Source of the DNA: Naegleria gruberi
Taxonomy: Eukaryota
Direction: 5' to 3' (one strand)
Assembly: GCA_000004985.1 (NCBI GenBank)
Contig: GG738917.1
Length of the DNA stretch: 64,000 nucleotides
In this document: piece by piece, positions 5,910 to 30,075 of the stretch
Numbering within the stretch: the stretch's first letter is position 1
How the letters are laid out: each line of letters opens with the position of its first letter
Position numbers and translations under genes: made by a program
The notes under the pieces: model-generated
What the model saw: only the letters and a program-made list of their open reading frames with translations
Told to the model about the DNA's origin: nothing
The model's database searches: none

Positions 5910-6958
5910 ATGCACCAACCACACAAAAGCGCTCACTCAAATCATCATGATCAAAAATTCGAATCGGATCATACAATTGATGAATATATTCCTCATCAGA
6001 GTGTACCGGAGGAACCTCTCTGGTTGAGAGAATTACAAACATTAGAACCTGTTAAGATTGAAATTGAACATTTTGTTGATGTTCATCACTTGAGAATTGT
6101 GGTAATATCGGATACTCATGGATATCATCGTTATTTGAAATTTCCACCTTGTCCAGAGGGAAAGAAGATGATTCTGGTGCATTGTGGTGATATGACTGAT
6201 CATGGAACGTTGGAAGAAGTGAGGAATTTTAATGCATGGTTAGGACATTTAAGGACTAGTTTCTCTCAGATTTATTGTATTGCTGGGTAGGTTCTTTTTG
6301 CTTAATAGTTTTGATTTGAATAATTTTAGTAATCATGAAATTGAATTTGCAAAATTTACAAAAGAAGGTTTGTTTGAAATCAAGAATGAAAATTAATCAA
6401 TTTGAAGAAATTCAAAAAAAGCTATTGACTAATTGTATTTATTTACAAGATGAGGAATTTACAGTTTGTGGATTGAAATTTTATGCAACACCTTGGTGTC
6501 CAAACATGTACGATTGGTTGTGTTTGAAATTTGAAAAACTGATCAACCAGCCAGAGAAGGTGAAGGATTTACAAAATTTTGATGATAAATTCTTTTTCAA
6601 GAATGATAAGGAATTGGAAAAGATCTTTTCCAAAATTCCAGAAGATGTAGACATTCTCATAACTCACTCTCCACCAAAATTCATTCTAGATTTCAATGAA
6701 TTTGGTTACAATAGAGGATGCTCGCAAATATTGGCAAAACTATTGGATTTACACAAGCTAAAGATTCATCTATTTGGACATATCCACTCAACTTATGGTT
6801 ACGAATTTTTGAGAAGATCCGATGTGTTACAAGCTGCTTCAAGAGAAAAAGATCACAACACTGGTCAGTCAACCAAAACTGAACCAAGTAATGATGACAT
6901 CCTATTTGTGAATGCAGCAAATTCACACAAATTTCAACCATTTTATTTTGATGTTTAA
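5910..6958 (+). CDS. Calcineurin-like metallophosphoesterase (MPPED/239FB-like). Spliced; proposed exons 5910-6286, 6330-6367, 6408-6958.
   Basis: MPP motifs VISDTHG, HCGDMTDHG, IAG|NHE (the GNHE motif is split by an intron, donor GT at 6287, acceptor ttttag at 6329), ILITHSPP, GCSQIL, HLFGHIHSTYG. The second micro-intron (6368-6407, gtttgt...ttgaag) is inferred so as to join the frames. The exon 2 boundaries are less certain. Confidence 0.65.
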
Positions 6959-6978
6959 TCACACCCACTAACTGAAAC

Positions 6979-8007
6979 ATGGTTGAATTAATCAACAAAT
7001 TAAAAATGTCACAAGTTGGTTTTTCATCACTGCCCACGGAAATTTATCTTCAAATTTTGACATTTGCTGTAGACTGGGAGCTATCAGATGTTTTATTGAA
7101 AACATCAAATGCCAAAATAGTTGCTTCCTTCCAATCTATCAACAGGAATATTATCAACAATTCGGAGATGCAAAGTTCGTTTAACAAATTTTGGTGGAAA
7201 TTATTCGAAATTAATTTCGGCATCCCCAAGAAAAATTATCAAAAATTGGATCATTTACGAAAGGAAATTATTGAATCAAAAATCGATTTGAGGAGGATTA
7301 TTTTACAAGCTCATTATACGAAATTCAAATTGTGGAAACAACCTAAATATTATGAAATTCCTGTTGATATTCATGATATGAGAATTGTGTTATTAGGAAG
7401 AGGAGGTGTTGGAAAATCTGCCATCACTATTCAATTTTGTCAACATATTTTCTATCCTGAATACGACCCTAGTATAGAAGATTCGTATAGGAAAACAGCA
7501 ATAGTGGATAACACACAGTTAATATTTGATATACTGGATACAGCTTATTTGGAATATTATTCACCAATGAAGGAACAATACATGCACTATGCTCATGCAT
7601 TTATTGTTGTTTGTGATCTTACAGATAGGCCAACACTCGTGGAGGTCAACTCTGCAGTTAATGATCTAGTTTTAGCACAAGATAGAGAAGTGAATGATAT
7701 GCCTATTGTGTTTGCCTTGAACAAGATTGATTTATTGAACGATTCAGATAAAAAACTAGCCACAGAGGAATTTAGTTCTGAAATTAGGAAAATAGTGAAT
7801 GAATTTTCATTGACGAATTGGAAAATTATGGAATGTAGTGCAAAGCAAAGGCAAAATATTGATGAAATATTTATGGATCTAGCCAGAAGAAGGCAATACT
7901 ATGATATTGTCGATGATTTCACGCTTTTGCAGAATATTACTCTCGAAAATAGTCAAAAGAAATCAATCTCAGAACATTCAAGACACAAGAAATGTTCTCT
8001 AATGTAA
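6979..8007 (+). CDS. F-box-like N-terminus fused to a Ras/Rap-like small GTPase domain, with a C-terminal CAAX box (CSLM).
   Basis: F-box-like LPTEIYLQILTFAV. P-loop GRGGVGKS. YDPSIEDSYRK (switch I, Ras/Rap-like). DILDTAYLEYY in place of DTAGQE. NKID (NKxD). ECSAK (SAK). C-terminal KKCSLM. Confidence 0.7.
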   Translation: MVELINKLKMSQVGFSSLPTEIYLQILTFAVDWELSDVLLKTSNAKIVASFQSINRNIINNSEMQSSFNKFWWKLFEINFGIPKKNYQKLDHLRKEIIESKIDLRRIILQAHYTKFKLWKQPKYYEIPVDIHDMRIVLLGRGGVGKSAITIQFCQHIFYPEYDPSIEDSYRKTAIVDNTQLIFDILDTAYLEYYSPMKEQYMHYAHAFIVVCDLTDRPTLVEVNSAVNDLVLAQDREVNDMPIVFALNKIDLLNDSDKKLATEEFSSEIRKIVNEFSLTNWKIMECSAKQRQNIDEIFMDLARRRQYYDIVDDFTLLQNITLENSQKKSISEHSRHKKCSLM

Positions 8008-8347: not shown

Positions 8348-10009
8348 ATGTCAAAACGAACACTGGAAACTCTTTATGAGGATGATGAGATTTCCATTGT
8401 TGCTCAACCTCCTCCGATCAAGGAAATTAAATTATCATCAAATATTAAAACCAAATTCCAAGAACTTCCCGACGAATTAATTAAATTAATATTAAATTTC
8501 ATACCGGACCAATATATTATTGCCTCCACTTGTAGAATATCCAAAGAATGGTATGAAATCTGTTCGAATGGTTCTCTCCAATTCCGACTCGATTATTCAA
8601 TAAGAAGGATCAAGAGATTGGATTTGGTAAAATTATGTGATTGTCCAATGATGAGAAATTTAGTTTATTTAAATTTGAATAATAATCAATTGCCACAACG
8701 ATATGTTGCAATGATTGGAGGGAGCGAATATTTGACTAATTTGGAAGAATTGGAATTGAACAAGTCAAAACTAAAGTTTAAAGCTGTGAGCTCCTTGGTG
8801 AAGAGCAAATTTGCAAAAACTATCAAAAAGATTTCATTTGATAGTTTTATAACAATGAATCCAGATTTGCTAATTAAATGTGTTGAGGATACTGTGGAAT
8901 CAACTGGAAATTTGTTTTGGTATTACTTTCTTGCTGGATATTTTGAGAATGTTGATTGCGCAGAATTGTCAGAGGAATATTTGAGGAAATCAGCAAATCT
9001 TGGTTATGTACAATCACAGATTGAGTATGGTCTTTTAAAAGTAAAAGATAATCAAGAAGAAGCTCTGATATGGTTAAAAAAGGCAGCAGAATTTGGAGAT
9101 TCCAATGCTCAGATATATCTTTCTGAATTATATGGAAATAGAGGAGAAAATGAGTTATCTTTCAAGTGGCTATTGACAGCTGCAGAACAAGGTAATACTA
9201 AAGCGTTCTATAATTTGGGGTTTTATTATAGAGAGGGCACTGGTGTGAAGATGGATTATGAGAAGGCACTCCACTGGTTTTTGAAAGCTGAGGAACATGG
9301 CGATCTCAATGCCATTTGTGTTATCGGTCACATGTATGGTATAGGACAGGGAGTAGAAGTGAATGAAGAAAAATCAACAGAGCTTACCTTAAGAGCTGCC
9401 ATGCGGGGAGACTCTTCCTCGCAGTACAATTTGGGTGTTAAATATTATCATGGCACTGGGACAGAAAGAGATTTGGAAAAGTCATTCAATTGGTTTCTCA
9501 ATGCTGCTAATGCTGACGAACCACTCGCTCAAAAAAGGGTAGGTTGCATGTTTTCTTCAGGGGAAGGTGTTGAGCAAGATATAGATCGAGCCATGTTTTG
9601 GCTTAAAGAGGCGTGTGATCAAGGAGATCATTCATGTACCATTCTCTTTGGAATTATGCACTACTTTGGATTACATGATTGTGAACTAGATTTGGAAAAA
9701 AGTAGGCAATTTTTGGGAAAATTAGGCACTCAATTCGATGACAGATTTCTCAGTAAGGTAAATTCAAGCTGTTGTTGCAATGAATGTTTTGTGGAAGATT
9801 TTAATGGATTTAACTATGAATGTGCTAATTTATCATGTGATTTTGATTTATGCCAACGATGTTACGAGAATGGAGCTAAATGCAACAAATGTGGAAACTC
9901 AAAATTTGCCAAACACCACGCTTTACAACTTTTTGTTCCTTTGCTAAAGCAGTTAAATGAAAAACCAAAGCACACAAAATTGGAAACATTGATCAAACTC
10001 CTTGAATAA
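8348..10009 (+). CDS. F-box protein with an LRR-like segment, Sel1/TPR-like repeats and a C-terminal ZZ-type zinc finger.
   Basis: F-box LPDELIKLILNFIPD...W. Repeated A-x-x-[WY]-[LF]-x-x-A-A-E-x-G motifs (Sel1-like). C-terminal Cys/His cluster CANLSCDFDLCQRCYENGAKCNKCG..HH (ZZ-like). Confidence 0.7.
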   Translation: MSKRTLETLYEDDEISIVAQPPPIKEIKLSSNIKTKFQELPDELIKLILNFIPDQYIIASTCRISKEWYEICSNGSLQFRLDYSIRRIKRLDLVKLCDCPMMRNLVYLNLNNNQLPQRYVAMIGGSEYLTNLEELELNKSKLKFKAVSSLVKSKFAKTIKKISFDSFITMNPDLLIKCVEDTVESTGNLFWYYFLAGYFENVDCAELSEEYLRKSANLGYVQSQIEYGLLKVKDNQEEALIWLKKAAEFGDSNAQIYLSELYGNRGENELSFKWLLTAAEQGNTKAFYNLGFYYREGTGVKMDYEKALHWFLKAEEHGDLNAICVIGHMYGIGQGVEVNEEKSTELTLRAAMRGDSSSQYNLGVKYYHGTGTERDLEKSFNWFLNAANADEPLAQKRVGCMFSSGEGVEQDIDRAMFWLKEACDQGDHSCTILFGIMHYFGLHDCELDLEKSRQFLGKLGTQFDDRFLSKVNSSCCCNECFVEDFNGFNYECANLSCDFDLCQRCYENGAKCNKCGNSKFAKHHALQLFVPLLKQLNEKPKHTKLETLIKLLE

Positions 10010-10770: not shown

Positions 10771-13700
10771 ATGATAAGTAAGTTTGGTATGACCTTCACA
10801 AATTCTAAAATTCCAGAAGAGCTTTTAATTTTGGTGCTGTCAGTCACTTTCGTTCTCTGCTTTGCAAGTGTCAGCGAAGGCAGAGGACCAAAAGCATGTG
10901 CAGATTTGAGTACATTACCAGCTGGTTGTACTCAAAAATCTAGCAAAGATTATTCAGGTACTCTAGCAACATCAACAGGTCCTTTGATGGGAATGGCGGC
11001 TGACTTGTCTGCAAATATTTATGTCATCCAAAACGCTTTCAACTCCTTTAAGACAAACAACTTGGCAACTGCTACATTGAACAAGGGTATTATTTCAAAG
11101 TACTCAGCTGATAAGGGTGTTCTTGCTTGGGAAAAGTTGACATGTGGTTCAGGAAATACTTTCTTTAGCAATATTGTTGCTACTACTTCTCAAGTTAACA
11201 TTGGCGGTACTATTGAAAATGTAACCAATCCATCTGATTTGTGTATCTTTAACGCTGTAAGTGGATCCAATACGAGAGAATTGGACGGAAGAAATCTTTC
11301 GTTCTTTGTTTCGTTAGATTCTTCCTCAGGTATTGTTCGTTTTGTCAAATCACTCGATGTTTACAATGGCTCCACCATTCTTTCAATGACTTCTGATGCT
11401 AGCGACAATGTTATCATTGCACAAAAAGTTAAGAAATATGGTAGTGGTGTTATTTCTATGGATGGTATCACAGTTACTCTTCCAAACAATGATGTTAGCA
11501 ATGTGGTAATTTCTGAATTCTCCAACGTTGATGGTAATTTAAGATGGTCATCCGTTTTGTGTGAAGATCCATCAAGTGAAGAGGCATGTCAAGTTATTTC
11601 CATTCATTCCTCTTATGGAGTTGATGATAATGTTCTGATTGTTTTATCTGTGAAGGGAAGTGTAGTTTTGAAAAATTTTGGTAAAATATCATCCCAAGTT
11701 AATATGGCTAATATCTTCCTTGTTGGTTTGTCAAAGAATGGGCAAAAGGTCAGATTTGCAAAGACGTTGAGTTATAGTTTAACTATTGATATTACAAATG
11801 TCAAAGCAACTATTAATCAAGCTGGAGAAATGGTTTTAGCACTAGCTTGTTCTGATAATTGTATTATCAATCAAGAAATGGTAAATCCTGGTATCTACCT
11901 CATTCAATTTAACATGTTTAAACTCTCAATTGACTATGTTAAATTATTTGTACCAATATCTAACCTTGATACTGTTCAAGTTGCATCAATTGCAATCGAT
12001 GCCGCTGGTAATCCATATACCATTATCAAATCTTTGTCCACTCCCCAAATTACCATCTATGACAGTGATTCTAGAAAGTCAACCTTTGTTTCTCCAAATG
12101 TTCTTCTAGTGAAACATACAGCAAGTTCTGGATCAGTTTACTGGGCACAACCTATTGTCACTTTCTCTACTGTTAGCAAGCTGTTCATTCCAAATATGTT
12201 CAGAAGTGATTCTTATGTTTATACTTTCCCAACTATTCCAGTTGTTTATCAAGATAACAATCAAGTCAACTTGAACACATTCCAACCATGTTTGGGCACG
12301 GTTTCAAAGCTATCAACATCATATTTCGTTGGTGGTTCTGGAGGTGATCATTCATTTTCAACAGATCAGAAAGTCAAATCTATTGCTTGTTATGGTGAAG
12401 GAACAGTGAAAGGAATTGTTTTTAATTATTTTGTTGGTGAAGGTTTTAAAGCAGGAACAACAGAGGGAACCACAAAAACCATTATCTTTGATCCAGATGA
12501 GTACATTACAGAACTAGAGATGAGTGTTGATAGAGGAACATTTATAACCAACGTTGGTTATATCAGAATCAAGACAGACAGACAACAATTTACATTTGGA
12601 CAAAAGAGGTCGTCAAGTAACTACAATTACATTCTGGATAATGATAAGACTGTTATTGCGTGGTCTATCAAGTCAGGAACTCATGTTGATTCAATTACAG
12701 CATTTTTAGGAGATAGAGCCAACGGTTATCCACTTTATTGTGATTGTAAGTCAGGTTTTGAAGGTTCTACGTGTGAAAGAACTCAATGCTATGGTCAAGA
12801 TGCCACTGCCACAGGAGTTGTTTGTTCAGGAAAGGGCTCATGTTCAGGTCCAAACAGTTGTGCCTGTAATCTTGGATACAGCGGTCATGCCTGTATTGAT
12901 GTTAATTATTGTAACAATAATAGCTCATTGGCAGATCCATTGTTGTGTGGCACTGGTACTTGTAAGAGTGATTTGTGTGACTGTAAACCTGGGTTTTATG
13001 GCGAAAGATGTCAATATTGGGATTGTTATGGAATTCAACAAACAAACACTTCATATGCTTGTAGTGCTAATGGACAATGCCAATCTCCAAACAATTGTCA
13101 ATGCTATGATTATACCAAATATGGAGGTTTACAATGCCAACTCCCTATTTGTAATTTCTTACTTTCAAATCATTCAGATGTATGTACTGGACATGGCATT
13201 TGTACAGCTCCGGAAAAATGTGCATGTGAACCAAATTATTTGGGTCAATATTGTGAAGAATTCTCTTGTTTTGGAATTGAAAGAAATTCCTCAAATGTCT
13301 GTAATACTCGTGGTAAATGTATTGGTATTAATCAATGTAAATGCACTCTACCATACTATGGAAATGAATGTCAACTCTATGATTGCCATGGAGTAGTATA
13401 TAATGATAATAATGTCTGTTCTTCACATGGTCAATGTGGTTCACCAAATAATTGTACATGTCAGGCAGGTTATTTTTCAAATGATTGCAGTTTATATCAA
13501 TGTAGTGGTAAATTAATGAACGATTCGAGTGTCTGTTCTGGAAGAGGTACTTGTCAATCACCTAATAATTGCTCCTGTGTTGAAGGACATTCTGGTCAAG
13601 TGTGTGAAAATTACTATTGTTTCAATGTTTTTAAAGGAAATTCTTCAGTTTGCTCAGGTAATGGTAATTGTATTTCATCCAATAATTGCCAATGCAAATA

Positions 13701-13986
13701 TAATTTCAATGGAACAAATTGTGAAACATGTGCCAATAACTATTTTGGCAAACGCTGTACTAATAGCATCCCCAATAGAAGAGCACTCATGACATCCACC
13801 ACTTCAGTAGAAATCGAGTTCTTCTCTCCAAAATATTTTGCAACCAACAGTCAAACTACAATTAGTTGTGATAATATACTGTCCCCTGCATCTATCACTA
13901 AATATGTAGAATTGGACTTTGTAGACCAAAATTACTTTCCACTTTTGCAGATTCTAATGGAAACTATCAATATAGATTCACTATAA
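10771..13986 (+). CDS. 5' portion of a very large secreted/transmembrane protein: signal peptide, jacalin-like lectin domain, and about 12 tenascin/laminin-type EGF modules.
   Basis: Signal peptide MTFTNSKIPEELLILVLSVTFVLCFASVSEG. Jacalin-like segment GGSGGDHSF...IVFNYFVGEGF...FDPDEYITELEMSVDRGTFITNVGYIRIKTD...FTFGQ. Repeated C-x-C-x(2)-G-[YF]-x-G-x-x-C EGF units from 12740-13750. The antisense ORF 12740-13396 is a shadow. Confidence 0.7.
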   Translation: MISKFGMTFTNSKIPEELLILVLSVTFVLCFASVSEGRGPKACADLSTLPAGCTQKSSKDYSGTLATSTGPLMGMAADLSANIYVIQNAFNSFKTNNLATATLNKGIISKYSADKGVLAWEKLTCGSGNTFFSNIVATTSQVNIGGTIENVTNPSDLCIFNAVSGSNTRELDGRNLSFFVSLDSSSGIVRFVKSLDVYNGSTILSMTSDASDNVIIAQKVKKYGSGVISMDGITVTLPNNDVSNVVISEFSNVDGNLRWSSVLCEDPSSEEACQVISIHSSYGVDDNVLIVLSVKGSVVLKNFGKISSQVNMANIFLVGLSKNGQKVRFAKTLSYSLTIDITNVKATINQAGEMVLALACSDNCIINQEMVNPGIYLIQFNMFKLSIDYVKLFVPISNLDTVQVASIAIDAAGNPYTIIKSLSTPQITIYDSDSRKSTFVSPNVLLVKHTASSGSVYWAQPIVTFSTVSKLFIPNMFRSDSYVYTFPTIPVVYQDNNQVNLNTFQPCLGTVSKLSTSYFVGGSGGDHSFSTDQKVKSIACYGEGTVKGIVFNYFVGEGFKAGTTEGTTKTIIFDPDEYITELEMSVDRGTFITNVGYIRIKTDRQQFTFGQKRSSSNYNYILDNDKTVIAWSIKSGTHVDSITAFLGDRANGYPLYCDCKSGFEGSTCERTQCYGQDATATGVVCSGKGSCSGPNSCACNLGYSGHACIDVNYCNNNSSLADPLLCGTGTCKSDLCDCKPGFYGERCQYWDCYGIQQTNTSYACSANGQCQSPNNCQCYDYTKYGGLQCQLPICNFLLSNHSDVCTGHGICTAPEKCACEPNYLGQYCEEFSCFGIERNSSNVCNTRGKCIGINQCKCTLPYYGNECQLYDCHGVVYNDNNVCSSHGQCGSPNNCTCQAGYFSNDCSLYQCSGKLMNDSSVCSGRGTCQSPNNCSCVEGHSGQVCENYYCFNVFKGNSSVCSGNGNCISSNNCQCKYNFNGTNCETCANNYFGKRCTNSIPNRRALMTSTTSVEIEFFSPKYFATNSQTTISCDNILSPASITKYVELDFVDQNYFPLLQILMETINIDSL

Positions 13987-22037: not shown

Positions 22038-25000
22038 TTGTTCTTGTTGTATTTTAAAGACACACCAAGACGGGTTAACAACTTCAAAAAAAAACAAAAA
22101 TACAAGATGGTTACAAAGGCAAATATTTCAATTGTTGTCATCGTTGTGATGATGGCCATGTTGGTGTACATGGTTAATGGAGCACCATTAAATACATACT
22201 CTGTCAAGATTAGTACATTTGCAGGTGGTAATGGTGAATTCAAAGATCCACAAAAGCTTGCTAGATTATCAAATGGTGATATTTTGGTCAGTGATGCTTT
22301 AGGTCATGCCATTAAGAAGATTAACGTGACCAGTGGTGTGATTACTACAATTGCTGGTAATGGTACTGCTGGTTTTGGAGGGGATAATGGTCCAGCTGTC
22401 AATGCTCTAGTCAACAAACCATTTGGTATTGCAGTTTCTCAAACAGATGAGATTTACTTTGCTGATTCTGGAAATAATAGAATTAGAAAAATTGATTTGA
22501 CTGGTACAATTACAACAGTGGTTGGTACAGGAGATGCTACACCTTTCATTGATGGTGATTTGGCCACCAATTGTACCATTAACACTCCAATGGATGTTTC
22601 ATTGAGTACTTCAGGTGAATTATACATTGCTGATATGTACAATTACAGAATTAGAAAAGTTTTGACTAATGGTACCATTGTTACATTTGCTGGAAGTGGT
22701 CAATCAGGTCATACAGGTGATGGTGGTTTGGCAACCAATGCTGCCATGGCTCTTGCTTATGGTGTAAAAGTTTTTTCAAATGGAGAAGTTTACATTTCCG
22801 ATAGTTTCAATTTCAAAGTGAGAAAGGTTGATGTTAATGGAACTATTACAACTGTAGCTGGTTCTGGTGTTGCTCCTTATAGTGGTGATAACATTTTGGC
22901 TACTGCTGCCAATTTGAATTATCCAAGTGATGTTTTTCGTTTTGATACAGGTGAATTGGTCATTGCTGATACAAACAATAATAGAATTAGACTTGTAATG
23001 CCAAATGGTACAATTATTACAACTGCTGGTAATGGTACTGCTTCATTCTCTGATGGTGAATTTGCTGAAGAGAATGGATTATCTCTTCCAACTGGTTTGG
23101 TACTTATTCAAAATGGATTGTTGATTGCTGATGCTGGTAATAAGAGAATTAGATTGTTACAACGTACAATTTTCTCATGCTATGGAAAGTCAACACTCGA
23201 TTCCAATGTTTGCAGTGGTCAAGGAAGATGTGTTGGTAATAATATATGTCAATGTAATGCTGGTTTTGAAGGACCAACTTGTCTTCCATCCAAGTATTAT
23301 ATTACAACTGTTGCAACTGATTTTAAGGATCCACAAAAGATTGCCAAATTGTCAAATGGTGATATTATCGTTTCTGATACAGGTGATCACTCTATTAAGA
23401 AGATTAGTTACTCAACTGGTGTTATTTCAAGAATTGCTGGTACTGGTGTTGCAGGTTTTTCAGGTGATGGTGGTTTGGCTTCCCAAGCTCAACTCAATAA
23501 GCCATACGGTATTGCAATTACTGCTAATGATGAAATTTACATTGCTGACAATTTAAATCATAGAATTAGATTTGTTGATGTGAATGGCAATATTTCAACT
23601 GTTGCTGGTACTTCAATTGGTTTCTCTGGTGATAGTGGTTTGGCAACAGCTGCTAAATTAAATGCTCCAATGGATGTTTCATTGAGCGCTTCAGGTGATT
23701 TATATATTGCTGATAGAGATAATTATAGAATTAGAAGAGTTAGCAGTGGAGTTATTTCTACCTTTGCTGGTAATGGTCAATCTGGTTATTCTGGTGATGG
23801 TGGTCAAGCTACAAGTGCAGCCTTATCTCAAGCTTATGGTGTTAAGGTTATTAATGGCGAAGTTTACATTTCAGATAGTAACAATTACAAAGTTAGAAAG
23901 GTTGATGGAAGTGGAATTATTACAACTATTGCTGGTTCTGGAGCTGCTCCTTTCAATGGTGATGGATTGATGGCAACTTCTTCGAATATGAACCATCCAA
24001 CTGATGTTGCACTTCTACCAAGTGGTGAAATGATAATTGCGGACACTGATAACTATAGAATTAGAATGGTTCTTTTGAATGGTACAATGGTCACTATTGC
24101 AGGTAATGGTAATTATGTTTCAAGTGGTGATTATGGCCTTGCTACATCTGCTGGTTTGAAACTCCCAACCGGTATTTTAATTACTCAAGATGGTATCATG
24201 TTCACTGAAACAAGTAGTGTTGGAAGTAATGGAGGCGGTAAAGTTAGATTATTATCAACAGTTTATGTTCCTCCATTGTGTAATGGTATGTCTGCAAGTG
24301 ATCCTTATGTTTGTAACGGAAGAGGATCATGCATTGGTAAAGATTTGTGTCAATGTAATGCAGGATTCAATGGAACCTTCTGTGCAAATTCTCAATGTGT
24401 TAAACCATCTGCTGATATCACAATTCCATGTTTTGGAAATGGTAATTGTTCAAATGATGTTTGTACATGTGCTCCTGGTTTCTATGGACCTTACTGTTCA
24501 ATCTCAGTTATGATTAGCTCTAGAGGATATACTCATCCAATTATGGGTATTTTCATGATGGCTACAGTTAATTCATTGACCCTTGATGGTATTTCAAATG
24601 TTGATTACAGTTGGTCTCAAATTTCTGGTCCAACCATTTCAAACTTGGCAACCATGACCAATTTGAAAACTCCAACATTTATCATTCCAGGAAAATTCAA
24701 TTCTCTTTCATTCGATAACGGTCTTGTTTCTGGTAATACATATGGTTTTGCATTGACTGCCAAGATTACAACTGGTGCCTACACAACAACTGTCACAACC
24801 TCAACCACTGTTCTAGTTCAACAAAATCCAGCATTGACTTTCACATTAAAAGATGACAGTACCAATCAAGCTATTACTTCAGGTGTTGCTGGTACAACTG
24901 TTTTCAGAATTAACATTACAAGTAACTCAAATCCATACTCTGACTCTAGCTTCAAATACGGATTTGGTTTTGCAGATTCTAATAGTATTACAATTCTCAC

Positions 25001-26198
25001 TGATATGAAAGAAGGTCCAGCTACTTTTAAATTACCATTCATTTCAGGTCAATCAAGTGTTGATATCTATGTTGGATGTGAAGGAACTAACTCATACAGT
25101 GTTCAAAAATTGACAACTGTCTCATTGACAAATCCAGTTTCAAACTTGCCAACAAGTCAAGCCATTTCCTCAATTCAAAATCTCTTCACTTCAAATTCTT
25201 CTGTTGGTGATTTGTTGGGTGCTGCTTCACTTTTGAATACCATTACAACAACTGATGCAACTCAAATTGCAAATAAGCAAACTATCAGAAATTCAATCAT
25301 TACCACAATTTCTAAAGCAATTTCCACTGGAGATCTTGGTTCTGCAATTAAGGCCCTCTCTACCGTAACATCAGTCACATCAGAAATCACTCAAACTTCT
25401 GCTGATAACACACTTGAAACAATGATTAGTGGAACCAACAATCCACAATTCTCCAGAAATGAAGTTGCTTCACTCGTTAATATTGCTTCAAGTATTGGAT
25501 CAGTTTCAAGCGGTAGCAAGACAGTATCACTTGGTAATTCAATAGGATCTAAACTCATTACACAAATGTCCTTGGGAGATTTAATCAGTAGTAGTGGAGC
25601 CAATTTTGGTATTGCAATTTCGAGAGGTGTGAAATCATTCGCTCTTGCAAATGTTTCAATTGCTTTACCATCTAACACAAGATCTTTGAATGGCATTGAA
25701 TGTTTCTTCATTGATATTAAGGACCAACTTTCCTTCATGCAATGTTTGGCAAATTCCAATTGGGTAGCCAGAAATGGACCAAAATATGCACCAGGTACTC
25801 AAAGAGCTCTTAACGCTGCCACATATACTATTGGTTCATTGGTTTATGACCTGACACCAATGTACGACAATGGAACCATTGTTTCTGGTAATGTTACAAG
25901 TTCTACCGATATTCAAATTACAATTCCTTACACAGGATCATTGACACCAGTTTGTGGTATTTTAAATAGTGATCAAACTTACTCTGTCAATAGCAAAGCC
26001 ACACTAGTCAAAGGAAATGGTTCAGTAACTTGTAAAACTAAAGTATTGAGAGGAAATGTCTTGCTTTTAACTCAAGCTACAGCTGCTAGTTCACCTATCA
26101 CACCTAAGAAATCGACAATTGTTGGCGGAAGTGAAACAAACAAGTTGAGTGCATTGTTGATGTGTTTGTTGATGGCTATTTCCATGTTACTCTTCTAA
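22038..26198 (+). CDS. Large secreted, probably GPI-anchored, protein with two tandem NHL-repeat beta-propeller + EGF modules followed by a Thr/Ser-rich stalk. The likely true start is the Met at about 22107 (MVTKANISIVVIVVMMAMLVYMVNG).
   Basis: Repeated NHL-type blades (Y[IF]ADSxNNRIRK[IV], GxxGxxGDGG). EGF units (CSGQGRCVGNNICQCNAGFEGPTC and CNGRGSCIGKDLCQCNAGFNGTFC). Clear internal duplication between about 22200-23290 and 23300-24390. Hydrophobic C-terminus (LSALLMCLLMAISMLLF). The antisense ORFs inside are shadows. Confidence 0.75.
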   Translation: MFLLYFKDTPRRVNNFKKKQKYKMVTKANISIVVIVVMMAMLVYMVNGAPLNTYSVKISTFAGGNGEFKDPQKLARLSNGDILVSDALGHAIKKINVTSGVITTIAGNGTAGFGGDNGPAVNALVNKPFGIAVSQTDEIYFADSGNNRIRKIDLTGTITTVVGTGDATPFIDGDLATNCTINTPMDVSLSTSGELYIADMYNYRIRKVLTNGTIVTFAGSGQSGHTGDGGLATNAAMALAYGVKVFSNGEVYISDSFNFKVRKVDVNGTITTVAGSGVAPYSGDNILATAANLNYPSDVFRFDTGELVIADTNNNRIRLVMPNGTIITTAGNGTASFSDGEFAEENGLSLPTGLVLIQNGLLIADAGNKRIRLLQRTIFSCYGKSTLDSNVCSGQGRCVGNNICQCNAGFEGPTCLPSKYYITTVATDFKDPQKIAKLSNGDIIVSDTGDHSIKKISYSTGVISRIAGTGVAGFSGDGGLASQAQLNKPYGIAITANDEIYIADNLNHRIRFVDVNGNISTVAGTSIGFSGDSGLATAAKLNAPMDVSLSASGDLYIADRDNYRIRRVSSGVISTFAGNGQSGYSGDGGQATSAALSQAYGVKVINGEVYISDSNNYKVRKVDGSGIITTIAGSGAAPFNGDGLMATSSNMNHPTDVALLPSGEMIIADTDNYRIRMVLLNGTMVTIAGNGNYVSSGDYGLATSAGLKLPTGILITQDGIMFTETSSVGSNGGGKVRLLSTVYVPPLCNGMSASDPYVCNGRGSCIGKDLCQCNAGFNGTFCANSQCVKPSADITIPCFGNGNCSNDVCTCAPGFYGPYCSISVMISSRGYTHPIMGIFMMATVNSLTLDGISNVDYSWSQISGPTISNLATMTNLKTPTFIIPGKFNSLSFDNGLVSGNTYGFALTAKITTGAYTTTVTTSTTVLVQQNPALTFTLKDDSTNQAITSGVAGTTVFRINITSNSNPYSDSSFKYGFGFADSNSITILTDMKEGPATFKLPFISGQSSVDIYVGCEGTNSYSVQKLTTVSLTNPVSNLPTSQAISSIQNLFTSNSSVGDLLGAASLLNTITTTDATQIANKQTIRNSIITTISKAISTGDLGSAIKALSTVTSVTSEITQTSADNTLETMISGTNNPQFSRNEVASLVNIASSIGSVSSGSKTVSLGNSIGSKLITQMSLGDLISSSGANFGIAISRGVKSFALANVSIALPSNTRSLNGIECFFIDIKDQLSFMQCLANSNWVARNGPKYAPGTQRALNAATYTIGSLVYDLTPMYDNGTIVSGNVTSSTDIQITIPYTGSLTPVCGILNSDQTYSVNSKATLVKGNGSVTCKTKVLRGNVLLLTQATAASSPITPKKSTIVGGSETNKLSALLMCLLMAISMLLF

Positions 26199-26568: not shown

Positions 26569-29500
26569 TTAATTGGTTGTCCTGCTGTTACAAGTGGACA
26601 GGATCTTCAATAATTCAGATCTAATAATGGAGAAGGAAGGTCTTAAATCTGTTTGTTGATTCCAACATTGCTTTGCGAGTATAAAGTATTCCAAAATAGC
26701 CACAGGATTCATATTCGAAACTGGATACATATTTAACCATTCTTGTAATTCCTCAATAGTTTCGAAAGGAACAAGAGGTCTATAACCATTCAGAACCATT
26801 CCCAAAACATTAACAGGTGCCAAACTAGCATTTGCTCCAACTTTAGACGAAACTGTATAAGGAGTCAACTCAAAGAAAAGTTCCCACATGATTATTCCAA
26901 AAGAATAAACATCCATCTTGGTCGCCCTACTAATTTTCGACTCGTGTGAAATCTCCAAACTGTCATTTGTCAATTCTTGTTCATTTCTCATTAATTCTGG
27001 ACTCGCATAAAATAAAGTTCCAATTCCACGTGTCATGGTATTTTGTGTTAAATTTCCAACACTTCTACTCAATCCAAAATCACAAATTTTACATCTCAAA
27101 TCTTCGTCTAAAAGGACATTTCCTGGTTTGAGATCTCTGTGAATAATGGCAGGTTGTAGAGAATGCAAATAATCCATTCCAGCAGCAATGTCCTGGAGGA
27201 GGAGAATCTTTTGTTGGAATGTGAGATTAGTCTTGCCATTTCTGCAATTGAAAATTAATCTTTCCAATGAACCATTTTCCAAAAATTCAGTGACCATGTA
27301 TCTTGTTTCATCGGTGATACACACTCCGTAGAATTTCAAAATATTGGCATGTTGTAAACTTGCTAAAATTGAAGCTTCCTTCTCAAATTCCAATTGTAGC
27401 TCTTCATCATCTGCCAAATTTTTCAATGACTTGACAGCAACACTTGTTTCCTTAAATAAAATTGCCTTATAGACAACTCCTTGTCCACCTTCTGATATCT
27501 TTTTTACAATTTCCAAATCCTCAATGTTAATAATTATTGCTTCCAATCGAGATTTCATTTTCAATTCCATTTCATTTTGGCTTAATAGGGGTGAAGTGAG
27601 CGAGGTGGTATAGTAGGTCGAAAGAGGATCCTCTGCATTGCCAAATATCACTCTCTTATCAAGAATCTTTCTCGCAATGCTCTTCTCTGCTCTTTCCTTT
27701 CTCGATAACTTGTTGAGTCTTGCACGAATTTTCATTACAATGTAAATGACAAGAGTGGAAGAGATGATTCCCAAAATGAAGAATAGGATACTCGAAGGAA
27801 TGGCTATTCCTAAAATTAATCCCAACGATACTTTCTCTTTTGGAATGCACGAGTATCCAATCGCTGGAATACTTGTAAGAACAAGCTCTGTATCTGTTGG
27901 ACAATTAACAACTTGAATGGTTAGTGAGTTTGATTCCTTGAGTGGATATTTAGCCCATCCAATTGTTATATTAAACATGGTGGATAATCCCTTCTTGATG
28001 GATGCTTCAACAGAAAGCATTGTAATATTGACACCATCAAATGTTGGATTCACAATAAAAGTATAATCTGGATTAGTGACATTTACGTACATATTATCAA
28101 CATTGACTGGTATTACCATCTCTGAAGAAGTGGCCATTGCACTAATAAAAACTTGTTGTCCTGGATATAAATAGTAAAACTGTCCATAATTTGAGCTATT
28201 AAGACTCAATGAATTTTCCAATAAAAAATAATCATCTCCAAATATGTCAGCTCTATTTCCAATAAAACGATTATTTGTTAATGAAGTTTCAGCTTTTTGA
28301 AATTGATAAATGGCTCCTCCAGCTCTCTGAGCTCTATTATTCCTAAATGTACAATCTCTAATCGATGCCAATGCCTCTTTCCAATAAAAGAGAGCTCCTC
28401 CATTATAAGCATAATTGGATTCAAAGGTTGCATTCTTAATAGATAATGAATCAACACTTAAAGAGGATAATATAAAGATTGCTCCTCCATTTCCCATATA
28501 AATCTTGTCAGTTGGCAGAGAATTACTATAGGTAACTCTATTTCCATAAAATAGAGAACCTGTCAATGATAAATCAGTTGCACCTAAGATGAAGATTGCT
28601 CCACCAGATTTCTTTGCTGTGTTATTCCTAAATATGGTATTGGAAATTTCTAGACTCTGTGTAGTTGAAATGAAAATAGCTCCTCCCAAATTTGGAGAAT
28701 AATTATCTTGAAATAGAGAATTTTCAATTAAGGTAACGACCAATTTGGTTTCTTTTGCCATTGAATCAATATAAATAGGAGAACCTAATCCTCTGGTGAA
28801 ATTCGATTCCTTAATATAAAATTTCAAGATATCCGAAAGGTAAAACGTCGAAGCTCTTTCTCCCTTATTAGAATCAAATTTGCTATTCATCACCCTTAAT
28901 GTATCCACTACAAATAATGAGACAGGTGCTTGATAAGTTATTAGAAACTCAGTATCATAACTCAAAGTACTAAAAGAAGAACTAGACGAAATTTCACAAC
29001 TTTCAAACTCTACATTGGTGCTAATTCTAATAGAAAACCAAATACCTCCATTCAGCATTCTACTTTTCCAAACTCTGACCAATCCAGTATTTGCAATCAC
29101 AAAAACTGGATCACTCTTCATTGCCACTGAAAATGTGCAATTTTCAATTAAAATATTATCAGCAAAAGAAATTGAAAAAAAAGCCAAAGTTTCCTCAAAT
29201 ATTGAATTATATAATGATAATAAAGATGATTGTTCTGTGTTGATGATAAAAGATTGAGTTGATTGAATATTCGAAATGTAGAGCTTATCTTGTTTCGTTC
29301 CAATTAGAATATTCATTGTAAAGTAGAGAATTTTGGAATTATCAATTCTTGATAATTGAATAGAATTTGTTGTGAATTTAAATATATAAACATTTGAATA
29401 TTCCAAGATAAATAAATTTAGAGAAGTGAAATCTGAAATTAAATTTACAATTTTCACATTCGAAAGTAAAAAACCTTTCGCATAGGAATCATAAATTCTC

Positions 29501-30075
29501 ACATTTTCAATTCCAATATTTGCAAAATATAAAACATCAACATCTTTTCTATCCACATTCAATAAATTCAAATTATCTACTTGACATTTAACTGTCACTT
29601 GTTTAGTTTGGTTCGGTTGACCAGAAATTTTAATCCAATAAAACAAGCCAGTGAGTGGTGAACGTAGGATTGTGGGTGGTGACGAACAATCGGCTAATAA
29701 ATCATTCATCAAAATTATTTCGACTGCAACTATTCGATTCACAAAATAGAGAAGGAAATTTATATTATTCGAAAGGTCGATATCTAGTCGGGTGAATACT
29801 TGATGAAGATTTACGCAAGGAGTGTCTAGAGTACAGTTTAGACTTGAAGATTCGAATGCAGTGGCCGAATTCACATAGTATGTGAAATTTAAATAGGGAG
29901 CTTTCGAATAGGATTGAAAAAACTGTTCTGCTTGTTGTGCCTTGTTTTCTAATGGAAAGAAAAGAAAGAAAGTTATTAGAATAATGATGATGAAAAAGGT
30001 GTGATGGGTTTCTAATAGTTTCATTTTTTTGACGAAAGCTCTTTGAACTTCACTAATAATTTTTTTAATAGCCAT
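26569..30075 (-). CDS. Receptor-like TKL protein kinase: signal/anchor, large ectodomain with polymorphic-membrane-protein-type (GGA[IL] / FxxN) parallel beta-helix repeats, a single TM, and a cytoplasmic kinase domain.
   Basis: Ectodomain repeats NLGGAIFIS...FRNNTAKKSGGAIFIL...GNGGAIFIL...FESNYAYNGGALFYW...FRNNRAQRAGGAIYQF. TM LGLILGIAIPSSILFFILGIISSTLVIYIVM. Kinase motifs ISEGGQGVVYKA, VAVK, HRDLKPGNVLLD, DFGLSR, GTLFYASPE. Confidence 0.8.
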   Translation of the reverse strand: MAIKKIISEVQRAFVKKMKLLETHHTFFIIIILITFFLFFPLENKAQQAEQFFQSYSKAPYLNFTYYVNSATAFESSSLNCTLDTPCVNLHQVFTRLDIDLSNNINFLLYFVNRIVAVEIILMNDLLADCSSPPTILRSPLTGLFYWIKISGQPNQTKQVTVKCQVDNLNLLNVDRKDVDVLYFANIGIENVRIYDSYAKGFLLSNVKIVNLISDFTSLNLFILEYSNVYIFKFTTNSIQLSRIDNSKILYFTMNILIGTKQDKLYISNIQSTQSFIINTEQSSLLSLYNSIFEETLAFFSISFADNILIENCTFSVAMKSDPVFVIANTGLVRVWKSRMLNGGIWFSIRISTNVEFESCEISSSSSFSTLSYDTEFLITYQAPVSLFVVDTLRVMNSKFDSNKGERASTFYLSDILKFYIKESNFTRGLGSPIYIDSMAKETKLVVTLIENSLFQDNYSPNLGGAIFISTTQSLEISNTIFRNNTAKKSGGAIFILGATDLSLTGSLFYGNRVTYSNSLPTDKIYMGNGGAIFILSSLSVDSLSIKNATFESNYAYNGGALFYWKEALASIRDCTFRNNRAQRAGGAIYQFQKAETSLTNNRFIGNRADIFGDDYFLLENSLSLNSSNYGQFYYLYPGQQVFISAMATSSEMVIPVNVDNMYVNVTNPDYTFIVNPTFDGVNITMLSVEASIKKGLSTMFNITIGWAKYPLKESNSLTIQVVNCPTDTELVLTSIPAIGYSCIPKEKVSLGLILGIAIPSSILFFILGIISSTLVIYIVMKIRARLNKLSRKERAEKSIARKILDKRVIFGNAEDPLSTYYTTSLTSPLLSQNEMELKMKSRLEAIIINIEDLEIVKKISEGGQGVVYKAILFKETSVAVKSLKNLADDEELQLEFEKEASILASLQHANILKFYGVCITDETRYMVTEFLENGSLERLIFNCRNGKTNLTFQQKILLLQDIAAGMDYLHSLQPAIIHRDLKPGNVLLDEDLRCKICDFGLSRSVGNLTQNTMTRGIGTLFYASPELMRNEQELTNDSLEISHESKISRATKMDVYSFGIIMWELFFELTPYTVSSKVGANASLAPVNVLGMVLNGYRPLVPFETIEELQEWLNMYPVSNMNPVAILEYFILAKQCWNQQTDLRPSFSIIRSELLKILSTCNSRTTN

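What the first reader, a model, noticed from the sequence alone, without database searches (positions are those of the whole stretch)
6979..8007. F-box fused to a Ras/Rap-like GTPase carrying substitutions at the catalytic Gly/Gln positions, plus a CAAX box
The GTPase domain is clearly Ras/Rap-like (GRGGVGKS, YDPSIEDSYRK, NKID, SAK, C-terminal CSLM). The DTAGQE switch-II motif reads DTAYLE, equivalent to G60Y and Q61L. Q61L is a classic GTPase-dead, constitutively GTP-bound substitution. With an N-terminal F-box-like motif, this suggests a membrane-anchored, permanently GTP-loaded scaffold that recruits SCF ubiquitin ligase, or alternatively a substrate-targeting pseudo-GTPase. The domain fusion is uncommon.
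Basis: partly seen in the sequence, partly recalled or inferred. Interest (0 to 1): 0.55.

Follow-up and report, generated by a model that had tools for sequence, protein, structure and literature searches.

The report
F-box-like Ras GTPase of Naegleria
This is a real Naegleria gruberi gene for a membrane-anchored Ras-type protein with a disabled catalytic site and an N-terminal domain that starts like an F-box; it belongs to a large amoeba-specific gene family, and F-box-GTPase fusions are already described for this organism, so it is an interesting but incremental case.

Summary
The window is Naegleria gruberi. The public model of this gene (XP_002670241.1, 209 aa) starts at Met134 and omits the N-terminal 133 codons. 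Those codons are open, score as coding, and are homologous to the N-termini of paralogs. DTAYLE aligns column for column with DTAGQE (G60Y, Q61L). Thr35 is also changed (T35S). CSLM is a farnesylation-type CaaX box.

The protein belongs to a large Naegleria/Willaertia-specific Ras subfamily built as an LPxEI N-terminal domain, a helical linker, a Ras domain and C-a-a-M. Most members have lost Gln61. Tyr60 was seen only in this gene among the members I aligned.

The F-box call is only partly supported. Pfam finds nothing in this protein. Profile-profile comparison matches F-box helix 1 only (about 90% probability, clean shuffle controls). The rest of the domain does not match, and structure prediction was uninformative.

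Herman et al. [quoted passage not shown] This would add the Ras family to that list. T35S plus G60Y suggest a non-switching pseudo-GTPase rather than an "active, GTP-locked" Ras.

The parts
6979..8007 (+). Complete ORF, 342 codons plus stop. The true start may be Met10 (ATG at 7006), which gives 333 aa. The public model XP_002670241.1 covers only 7378..8007.
   Evidence: ORF list. P0001 is 100% identical to aa 134-342. An in-frame stop lies at 6973. Family HMM alignments start at Met10, and paralog P0028 is 333 aa. The same 342-codon ORF with no indels occurs in a second strain, L002.
7024..7218 (+). Conserved N-terminal family domain, aa 16-80. It opens with the F-box-type helix LPTEIYLQILTF (7030..7065), followed by ..FQSINRNI.. 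and ..FNKFWWKLFEINF.
   Evidence: Coding potential is positive in frame 0 only (+0.11 bits/codon versus -0.40 to -0.88), and the chance of 133 open codons is 3e-5. A family HMM built without this protein scores it 32.6 bits, E=2.5e-8, with 0 of 5000 shuffles reaching that. hhalign against a PDB-validated F-box profile gives 89.8-93.9% probability, E=1.5e-7 to 1.8e-6. All of that signal comes from helix 1.
7219..7377 (+). Helical linker between the N-terminal domain and the GTPase, aa 81-133 (..LRKEIIESKIDLRRIILQAHYTKFKLWKQPKYY..).
   Evidence: It is conserved in position and partly in sequence across the family. AF2 predicts two helices here at low confidence, mean pLDDT 62.
7378..7890 (+). 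Ras-family GTPase domain, aa 134-304.
   Evidence: Pfam PF00071, E=7.7e-31. It is 35-41% identical to R-Ras2, Ras-like and Rap-like proteins. Herman et al. 2021 class it as 'Ras' in Table S8.
7396..7419 (+). G1 / P-loop GRGGVGKS (intact; Ala11 replaced by Arg).
   Evidence: Alignment with H-Ras.
7462..7488 (+). Switch I / effector loop YDPSIEDSY. It is identical to Ras residues 32-40 except T35S (Ser165).
7537..7554 (+). G3 / switch II DTAYLE: Tyr190 at the Gly60 position (TAT 7546..7548) and Leu191 at the Gln61 position (TTG 7549..7551).
   Evidence: Gap-free alignment to DTAGQE. Leu191 is Ser and Tyr190 is unchanged in the near-identical strain L002.
7720..7731 (+). G4 NKID (guanine specificity; intact).
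7837..7845 (+). G5 SAK (intact).
7981..8004 (+). Basic stretch RHKK plus the CaaX box CSLM (7993..8004). X = Met predicts farnesylation.
   Evidence: Sequence. C-a-a-M ends 11 of the 14 family members tabulated: 14 rows excluding H-Ras, two of them truncated models, plus one CYLQ. It also ends many N. gruberi paralogs in Table S8. The farnesylation rule is established knowledge, not tested here.

Best explanation
The locus encodes a full-length protein of 333-342 aa that the public annotation truncates. It is one member of a large, fast-evolving Ras subfamily restricted, as far as seen, to the heterolobosean amoebae Naegleria and Willaertia. The architecture has four parts: (1) a conserved N-terminal domain of about 65 aa whose first helix is an F-box-type LPxEIxxxILxF helix; (2) a helical linker of about 50 aa; (3) a Ras domain that keeps the nucleotide-binding motifs G1, G4 and G5 but has lost the catalytic Gln61, and in this paralog also Gly60 and Thr35; (4) a basic stretch plus a C-a-a-M farnesylation signal. 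The most likely mechanism is a membrane-tethered, guanine-nucleotide-binding but essentially non-hydrolysing and non-switching (pseudo-)GTPase. Its N-terminal divergent F-box would dock onto Skp1/Cul1, so the Ras domain would serve as the substrate- or partner-binding module of an SCF ubiquitin ligase at the membrane, or would itself be turned over by SCF. Shown here: the ORF, the coding nature and family homology of the N-terminus, the domain order, the motif states, the family and its distribution. Inferred: nucleotide binding, lack of hydrolysis and switching, farnesylation, Skp1 binding and any ubiquitination.
For: Gene and N-terminus: the ORF is open for 342 codons. The chance of 133 stop-free codons at this base composition is 3e-5, and codon usage is positive only in frame 0. 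The ORF is intact with no indels in a second strain. The N-terminus scores 32.6 bits (E=2.5e-8) against a family HMM that excludes it, and 20.1 bits (E=1.9e-4) when its closest paralog is also excluded; 0 of 5000 shuffles reach either score.

Family: an exhaustive profile search finds full-length matches of 309-366 aa covering both N-terminus and GTPase. They come from N. gruberi, N. lovaniensis, Willaertia magna and an unidentified metagenome organism. Willaertia has tandem clusters of them. Table S8 of Herman et al. shows about a dozen further N. gruberi 'Ras' paralogs with the same N-terminus, many ending in CaaX.

F-box: hhalign of the family against a PDB-validated F-box profile gives 93.9% (E=1.5e-7). 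The two subfamilies taken separately give 91.7% and 89.4%. Column-shuffle controls reach a maximum score of 13 against 32-40 observed. Pfam F-box-like is the only non-NTPase family recovered, in 4 of 15 members; the best result on an isolated N-terminus is E=5.2e-5, 23.4 bits against a cutoff of 24.3.

GTPase state: G1, G4 and G5 are kept, while Q61 is replaced in most members. H-Ras T35S and G60A predominantly adopt state 1 and have drastically impaired intrinsic GTPase (PMC4867591).

[quoted passage not shown] Rab40 acts with a SOCS box and Cul5 as a GTPase substrate receptor.
Confidence: 0.55

Rival explanations
1. The N-terminal domain is a lineage-specific helical module that is not an F-box and does not bind Skp1. 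It might instead mediate dimerisation, autoinhibition of the GTPase or binding of another partner. Under this reading the LPxEI helix is a chance or convergent resemblance.
For: Only 17 columns (helix 1) carry the F-box signal. The post-helix-1 part fails against the F-box profile in both subfamilies. There is no significant Pfam hit in any Naegleria-type member. There is no significant PDB sequence hit and no fold match. Herman et al. corrected many of these gene models but did not label them F-box, although they used SMART, Pfam and CDD.
Against: The helix-1 match is strong and specific (E about 1e-6 to 1e-7, shuffle maximum 13 against 32-40). It sits at the extreme N-terminus, followed by two more predicted helices. 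The extended alignment places FQSINRNI on VCKRW and FWWK on LW, the canonical F-box register. One Willaertia member matches Pfam F-box-like positions 4-36 of 47 at E=5.2e-5. F-box-GTPase fusions are abundant in the same genome.
Confidence: 0.27
2. This copy is a decaying or functionless paralog in a birth-and-death family. G60Y, Q61L and T35S would then simply reflect relaxed constraint, and the protein would have no specific mechanism.
For: Residue 61 differs (L or S) between strains that are 99% identical. The ratio is 6 non-synonymous to 2 synonymous changes, omega about 0.7. Switch motifs are extremely variable across paralogs. Willaertia copies carry frameshifts. Herman et al. describe pseudogenes and birth-and-death dynamics in the related divergent Rab-like clades.
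Against: The 342-codon ORF is intact in two strains, with no indels or stops. G1, G4, G5, the effector loop and the CaaX box are all intact. Codon usage is gene-like. Eight differences are far too few for a selection test.
Confidence: 0.12
3. One reading: a constitutively active, GTP-locked Ras (as with oncogenic Q61L) that signals permanently or scaffolds SCF in the 'on' conformation.
For: Q61L in H-Ras is GTPase-deficient (established knowledge). The effector loop YDPSIEDSY is almost canonical, and the nucleotide-binding motifs are intact.
Against: Gly60 and Thr35, the two residues that clamp the gamma-phosphate in the active state, are both changed. H-Ras G60A and T35S predominantly adopt state 1, which has drastically impaired effector affinity. 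Residue 61 is not conserved even between near-identical strains.
Confidence: 0.1
4. The public model is right: translation starts at Met134, and the upstream 133 codons are an untranslated leader that is open by chance.
For: The RefSeq/JGI model XP_002670241.1 starts there, and Herman et al. did not correct it. Only 20 nt (47 nt from Met10) separate the previous gene's stop codon from the long ORF's ATG.
Against: The chance of such an open frame is 3e-5, and the coding signal is frame-specific. There is significant homology to the N-termini of paralogs whose public or corrected models include this domain. An independent gene caller predicted the 342-aa product on a metagenome contig. Short intergenic gaps are usual here, for example 78 nt between the two preceding genes.
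Confidence: 0.04

Closest known systems
Naegleria F-box-GTPase fusions (Rab-like, Rho, Ran, G-alpha) described by Herman et al. 2021, BMC Biol 19:142, Supplementary Material 4 and Table S8 (PMC8296547)
   Same: Same organism. [quoted passage not shown] One divergent Rab-like subgroup also has a C-terminal CaaX. The families are lineage-specific, expanded and evolve by birth and death. The proposed meaning is GTPase-dependent ubiquitination.
   Different: [quoted passage not shown] The present gene and its paralogs appear in their table as plain 'Ras' with no domain note, and this gene's truncated model was not corrected. The F-box here is more divergent (helix 1 only).
TbFRP (Tb927.7.3790) of Trypanosoma brucei and Euglenozoa: FYVE + F-box + GTPase (PMC3593210)
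   Same: An F-box placed N-terminal to a Ras-superfamily GTPase in a member of Discoba. A link to ubiquitination or turnover is proposed but unproven.
   Different: TbFRP has an N-terminal FYVE domain for PI3P-dependent membrane targeting and a Rab18/Ypt6-like GTPase. The present protein has no FYVE, a Ras-type GTPase and CaaX-dependent membrane targeting. The TbFRP authors found no N. gruberi ortholog. Common ancestry was not tested here because no TbFRP sequence was available to the tools.
Rab40 (Rab GTPase + SOCS box, forming the CRL5 ubiquitin ligase)
   Same: A prenylated small GTPase fused to a cullin-adaptor module. The GTPase acts as the substrate receptor for localised ubiquitylation, for example of EPLIN, ANKRD28 and Rap2 (abstracts).
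   Different: The adaptor is a C-terminal SOCS box that binds ElonginB/C-Cul5, not an N-terminal F-box binding Skp1-Cul1. The GTPase is a Rab. It is a metazoan family.
RhoBTB (atypical Rho GTPase + BTB domains, Cul3 adaptor)
   Same: A GTPase with non-canonical catalytic residues fused to a cullin-adaptor domain. It is also present in Naegleria. The Cul3 link is from my own knowledge.
   Different: The adaptor is a C-terminal BTB tandem and the cullin is Cul3. The GTPase is of the Rho family, and there is no CaaX in most members.
H-Ras T35S, G60A and Q61L mutants, and natural Ras-family proteins that lack DxxGQ (RGK proteins with DxWE; Rap with Thr61)
   Same: The same positions are altered. 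T35S and G60A shift Ras-GTP to the effector-incompetent state 1 with impaired GTPase. RGK and Rap precedents are from my own knowledge.
   Different: These are single mutants or different natural families, and none carries Tyr at position 60. The behaviour of the triple combination in this divergent scaffold is untested. Lack of Gln61 does not by itself exclude GAP-assisted hydrolysis, because RapGAP supplies an Asn in trans.

Membership tests
Ras family of small GTPases (Pfam PF00071; Ras/Rap/R-Ras group) | Profile match above the curated threshold | tested here: met
   PF00071 E=7.7e-31, 107.3 bits against a cutoff of 21.6, aa 135-304.
Ras family of small GTPases (Pfam PF00071; Ras/Rap/R-Ras group) | G1 GxxxxGK[ST], G4 NKxD and G5 SAK nucleotide-binding motifs | tested here: met
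   GRGGVGKS, NKID and SAK all align to the H-Ras motifs.
Ras family of small GTPases (Pfam PF00071; Ras/Rap/R-Ras group) | Ras/Rap-type effector loop YDPTIEDSY | tested here: met
   YDPSIEDSY, 8 of 9 identical with T35S. Herman et al. class the gene as Ras, not Rap.
Ras family of small GTPases (Pfam PF00071; Ras/Rap/R-Ras group) | G3 DxxG with catalytic Gln61 (a working switch and hydrolysis) | tested here: not met
   DTAYLE: Gly60 is Tyr and Gln61 is Leu. It is therefore a sequence member of the family but not a canonical switch.
Ras family of small GTPases (Pfam PF00071; Ras/Rap/R-Ras group) | C-terminal CaaX prenylation signal | tested here: met
   CSLM preceded by RHKK. Only the motif was tested, not the modification.
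F-box proteins (Pfam PF00646 / PF12937; SCF substrate receptors) | Profile match of this protein above the Pfam gathering threshold | tested here: not met
   No hit at E<=1 on the full protein and none on aa 1-133. F-box-like reaches E=0.16, 12.2 bits against a cutoff of 24.3, on a 65-aa fragment.
F-box proteins (Pfam PF00646 / PF12937; SCF substrate receptors) | Helix 1 motif LPxE(I/L)xxxI(L/F)xxL | tested here: met
   LPTEIYLQILTF. hhalign of the family against a PDB-validated F-box profile gives 89.8-93.9%, E=1.5e-7 to 1.8e-6, and 0 of 40 column shuffles reach the score.
F-box proteins (Pfam PF00646 / PF12937; SCF substrate receptors) | Helices 2-3 (..L..VCK.W..L...D..LW..) | tested here: inconclusive
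   The extended alignment puts FQSINRNI on VCKRW and FWWK on LW. Tested alone, this part is no better than shuffles in either subfamily. One Willaertia member reaches Pfam F-box-like positions 4-36 at E=5.2e-5, just under the cutoff.
F-box proteins (Pfam PF00646 / PF12937; SCF substrate receptors) | Three-helix F-box fold | tested here: inconclusive
F-box proteins (Pfam PF00646 / PF12937; SCF substrate receptors) | Binding to Skp1 | not testable with these tools
   This needs a pull-down, a yeast two-hybrid assay or a complex prediction.
Heterolobosean 'LPxEI-Ras-CaaM' subfamily (defined here; listed as 'Ras' by Herman et al.) | Homologous N-terminal domain plus linker upstream of the Ras domain | tested here: met
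   32.6 bits, E=2.5e-8 against a family HMM that excludes the query, with 0 of 5000 shuffles reaching it. 45% identity over the full length to N. gruberi P0028. The post-helix-1 regions of the Naegleria-type and Willaertia-type groups are homologous, E=6.8e-5, 0 of 40 shuffles.
Heterolobosean 'LPxEI-Ras-CaaM' subfamily (defined here; listed as 'Ras' by Herman et al.) | Loss of catalytic Gln61 with G1, G4 and G5 retained, and a C-a-a-M end | tested here: met
   Motif table. The same pattern shows in the Table S8 sequences.
PseudoGTPase (nucleotide-binding but catalytically inactive class) | Loss of catalytic residues with nucleotide-binding motifs retained | tested here: met
   Sequence level only.
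PseudoGTPase (nucleotide-binding but catalytically inactive class) | Measured lack of GTP hydrolysis, and nucleotide-binding status | not testable with these tools
   This needs biochemistry on recombinant protein.
TbFRP / FRP family (Euglenozoa) | N-terminal FYVE domain and a Rab18/Ypt6-like GTPase | tested here: not met
   No FYVE hit in Pfam. The GTPase is Ras-type. The FRP authors found no N. gruberi ortholog.

The most novel reading that the evidence does not exclude
The family is a set of membrane-anchored SCF substrate receptors that use a nucleotide-locked, non-hydrolysing Ras domain as the recognition module. Each paralog, with its own diverged switch surfaces, would capture a different Ras-effector-like partner for ubiquitination at the membrane. 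Alternatively, signalling by these Ras proteins is terminated by SCF-mediated self-destruction instead of GTP hydrolysis. This would be the CRL1 counterpart of Rab40/CRL5 and RhoBTB/CRL3, expanded into dozens of paralogs in amoebae.
Probability: 0.2. Interest if true: 0.55.

Novelty: new member of a known kind. Interest (0 to 1): 0.3.

Why it matters
Practically, it corrects a public gene model. XP_002670241.1 lacks 124-133 N-terminal residues. It also suggests that a whole block of N. gruberi, N. lovaniensis and Willaertia 'Ras' genes carries an unrecognised, probably F-box-derived N-terminal domain.

[quoted passage not shown] That strengthens the idea that these amoebae wire small GTPases directly to cullin-RING ubiquitin ligases.

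The family is also a natural experiment in the decay of the Ras catalytic and switch residues (Gln61 replaced by P/A/L/S/H/V/M/R; Gly60 by Y/E/T/S) while nucleotide-binding motifs and the prenylation signal persist. That makes it a useful set of candidate pseudo-GTPases.

It does not open a new category, and nothing here is tested experimentally.

Tried and rejected
- Giant-virus or bacterial origin. I considered this at first because the window is AT-rich and packed with ORFs. It was rejected when the GTPase part matched N. gruberi at 100%.
- Word-based homolog search with the N-terminus alone: nothing found.
- HMM built from only four Willaertia N-termini: it does not recognise the N. gruberi N-terminus (3.2 bits, no better than shuffles). 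A broader family HMM does.
- Family N-terminal profiles against PDB sequences: only chance homeodomain hits (E about 0.2), and FBXL5 at E=0.98.
- dN/dS against the near-identical metagenome strain: only 8 differences, so uninformative.
- A TbFRP-like or other F-box architecture among the longer GTPase-similar hits: they are tandem-Ras gene models or a ubiquitin-VWA-Ras protein, with no F-box.
- SCF components next to the gene: none found.
- The window protein's sequence in Herman et al.'s corrected models: absent. Only its accession is listed, uncorrected.
- Literature search for an F-box-Ras fusion in Heterolobosea beyond Herman et al.: none found.
Full report
OBSERVATION. The window has 33% G+C and is densely packed with ORFs. 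An ATG-to-stop ORF of 342 codons lies at exactly 6979..8007 on the + strand. Pfam places a Ras domain at aa 135-304 with E=7.7e-31. G60Y and Q61L are therefore correct.

ORIGIN AND GENE MODEL. The C-terminal 209 residues are 100% identical to 'ras family small GTPase [Naegleria gruberi]', XP_002670241.1 / D2W024. That public model starts at Met134 and omits the 133 upstream codons. Five results say those codons are coding:
- The chance of 133 stop-free codons at this base composition is 3e-5.
- Codon usage, trained on 17 other long ORFs of the window, is positive only in frame 0: +0.11 bits per codon against -0.40 to -0.88 in the other five frames. The GTPase part scores +0.22 and the downstream intergenic region about -0.5.
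- A 99.2%-identical copy on a metagenome contig (L002, ENA ERZ929261) keeps the whole 342-codon frame with no indel, while a 4-nt indel lies just upstream of the ATG.
- The N-terminus is homologous to the N-termini of paralogs (see below).
- An independent gene caller predicted the 342-aa product on L002.

Family HMM alignments begin at Met10 (ATG 7006), and the closest paralog is 333 aa, so Met10 may be the real start. The preceding gene ends at 6958, only 20 nt (or 47 nt) upstream. Gaps this short are usual here.

THE FAMILY. The closest heterolobosean hit in the first search was a 269-aa Willaertia magna protein with an N-terminal extension. Its locus holds three tandem Ras genes:
- Gene B splices into a 338-aa protein that starts ..LLPNEILCDIVSYV.. 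and ends CILM.
- Gene A has an ORF with LPDDVICEILSYF that is separated from its Ras part by a 1-nt frameshift.
- Gene C has LPNEIICHV upstream but out of frame.

An exhaustive HMM search of 1.8 billion representatives with a four-member profile found about a dozen proteins of 309-366 aa that match across both the N-terminus and the GTPase. They come from N. gruberi (XP_002668509.1 and XP_002673033.1, 45% identical to the window protein over the full length), N. lovaniensis (two), Willaertia magna (many) and an unidentified metagenome organism. Nearly all begin LPxEI... and end C-a-a-M.

A family HMM that excludes the window protein scores its N-terminus at 32.6 bits (E=2.5e-8). Excluding the closest paralog as well, the score is 20.1 bits (E=1.9e-4). 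No shuffle out of 5000 reaches either value. An earlier HMM made from only four Willaertia sequences had failed, at 3.2 bits. Table S8 of Herman et al. 2021 shows about a dozen further N. gruberi 'Ras' entries whose corrected models have the same N-terminus (LPxEI..FQS[IL]..FNEFWW..), many with a CaaX end. This is a large expansion.

IS THE N-TERMINUS AN F-BOX? Pfam says no for this protein: nothing at E<=1 on the full protein, nothing on aa 1-133, and only E=0.16 over 16 residues of a 65-aa fragment. Across 15 family members, F-box-like (PF12937) is the only non-NTPase family recovered, in 4 members. On isolated N-termini, the best result is Willaertia gene B at E=5.2e-5, 23.4 bits against a cutoff of 24.3, covering profile positions 4-36 of 47. 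Ten Naegleria-type N-termini give only E=0.004-0.19.

I validated it against PDB: it retrieves 45 chains, all F-box proteins, including many not in the alignment. hhalign of the family against this profile gives 93.9% probability and E=1.5e-7. The Naegleria-type and Willaertia-type groups taken separately give 91.7% and 89.4%. A deeper 14-member Naegleria-type profile gives 89.8%. Column-shuffled controls never exceed a score of 13.2, against 32-40 observed.

Dissection shows where that signal comes from. It is all in helix 1 (LPxEIxxxILsF, 17 columns). With helix 1 removed, the remainder matches the F-box profile no better than shuffles in either group (scores 6.9 and 8.6). That remainder is, however, homologous between the two groups (E=6.8e-5, 0 of 40 shuffles). 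The register is the F-box-compatible one: FQSI.+ lines up with LYLINKQF, and FN.FWW with F..FYKDLLF.

STATE OF THE GTPASE. Across the family, G1 (GxxGxGK[ST]), G4 (NKxD) and G5 (SAK) are kept in almost all members. Gln61 is replaced in most (P in three, then A, L, H, V, M, R). Only two Willaertia members keep Gln. DTAGPE recurs in N. gruberi, N. lovaniensis and Willaertia, and in several Table S8 paralogs, so it may be ancestral for the Naegleria-type group. Gly60 is kept in most Naegleria-type members. Tyr at this position was seen only in the window gene and its near-identical strain copy, among the members tabulated. In that strain, residue 61 is Ser instead of Leu while Tyr60 is unchanged. 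The identity of residue 61 is therefore not under constraint.

In H-Ras, T35S and G60A each make Ras-GTP adopt predominantly state 1. That form has drastically impaired effector affinity and impaired intrinsic GTPase (PMC4867591). Applying this to the window protein is an inference. It predicts a protein that binds nucleotide, hardly hydrolyses it and does not make the normal switch: a pseudo-GTPase, not an oncogene-like 'on' Ras. There is one caveat from established knowledge. Rap lacks Gln61 and is still switched off by RapGAP, so the loss of Gln61 alone does not prove inactivity.

PRIOR KNOWLEDGE. Herman et al. [quoted passage not shown] They report that three divergent Rab-like subgroups have a conserved N-terminal extension identifiable as an F-box in some members, one subgroup with CaaX. 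They take this to point to GTPase-dependent ubiquitination. For the Ras family they mention only one BTB fusion. In their Table S8 the window gene (XP_002670241.1) and its paralogs are listed as 'Ras' with no domain note, and this gene's truncated model is not corrected. In Euglenozoa, TbFRP combines FYVE, an F-box and a Rab-like GTPase, and its authors found no N. gruberi ortholog (PMC3593210). Rab40 with its SOCS box and Cul5 and RhoBTB with Cul3 (own knowledge) are the established mechanistic analogues. I found no paper describing an F-box on Ras-family proteins of Heterolobosea.

MECHANISM AND RIVALS. The best-supported model is a farnesylated, membrane-bound, non-cycling Ras-like domain coupled through a helical linker to a divergent F-box that recruits Skp1-Cul1. 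The Ras domain would present partners for ubiquitination, or would itself be turned over. I give the whole model about 0.55: about 0.9 for gene, architecture and family, and about 0.45-0.5 for the SCF link. The rivals are:
- a non-F-box lineage-specific helical domain (0.27);
- a decaying paralog in a birth-and-death family (0.12);
- the truncated public model being right (0.04).

NOVELTY AND SCORE. The kind of object, an F-box-GTPase fusion in Naegleria that may include CaaX, is already described, and so is the proposed meaning. Four things are new:
- the corrected gene model;
- recognition that a large Ras-family clade in Naegleria and Willaertia carries an F-box-like N-terminal domain;
- the systematic loss of catalytic and switch residues in that clade;
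- the particular T35S/G60Y/Q61L combination in this gene.

I rate it a new member of a known kind, with interest 0.3.

Noticed in passing
window 5910..6958 (+): The upstream gene is a calcineurin-like metallophosphoesterase (Pfam PF00149 on both halves) that appears as two ORFs. A 43-nt GT..AG intron at 6287..6329 joins them in frame and restores the conserved ..IAG|NHE.. (GNHE) motif.
   Followed up: partly
window 8348..10009 (+): The downstream neighbour is a bona fide F-box protein: F-box PF00646 at 20.9 bits (above its cutoff) on ELPDELIKLILNFIP, six Sel1 repeats (E=6.8e-40) and a Cys-rich ZZ-like C-terminus. An F-box gene next to the F-box-like Ras gene is probably a coincidence. I used its F-box as one row of the reference alignment.
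   Followed up: partly
L001 2233..6901 (Willaertia magna JBEGDK010000117.1): Three family members lie in tandem. One is intact (338 aa). Two carry a single 1-nt frameshift between the LPxEI part and the rest, one of them in an A-run. These could be pseudogenes from birth-and-death evolution or homopolymer errors in the assembly. The same 422-kb contig carries at least six more members (locus tags ABK040_006875 to ABK040_006913).
   Followed up: partly
L002 1462..2490 (ENA ERZ929261 metagenome contig) versus window 6979..8007: A 99.2%-identical copy from an environmental Naegleria. Six of the eight nucleotide differences change the amino acid, including L191S at the Gln61 position. The upstream metallophosphoesterase gene is syntenic.
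   Followed up: yes
window 6959..6978: Only 20 nt separate the stop codon of the metallophosphoesterase gene from the first ATG of the Ras ORF (47 nt to Met10). The promoter and 5' UTR of the Ras gene must therefore overlap the upstream gene or its 3' UTR.
   Followed up: no
window 26569..30075 (-): A 1168-aa protein combines a C-terminal tyrosine-kinase-like protein kinase domain (E=1.7e-48) with Chlamydia polymorphic-membrane-protein (PMP) repeats (E=1.1e-12). This is an unusual repeat type for a eukaryotic receptor-like kinase.
   Followed up: no
window 10771..13986 (+) and 22038..26198 (+): Two large proteins carry teneurin-type EGF arrays, one with a jacalin lectin domain and the other with NHL repeats. 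A Beclin/Atg6 homolog lies at 34954..36162.
   Followed up: no
P0055 (637 aa; source organism not looked up): Among the GTPase-similar hits, one protein has a ubiquitin-like domain, a VWA domain and a C-terminal Ras domain. This is another link between Ras and ubiquitin-system domains.
   Followed up: no
family C-termini (alignment A6, columns ~395-425): Between the GTPase domain and the CaaX box, most family members share a segment of about 25 aa (D.x.[LV][LIV]K..[IL]..[DG]...[FI].E). It is shortened in the window protein (..DDFTLLQNITLENSQKK..). Its function is unknown.
   Followed up: no
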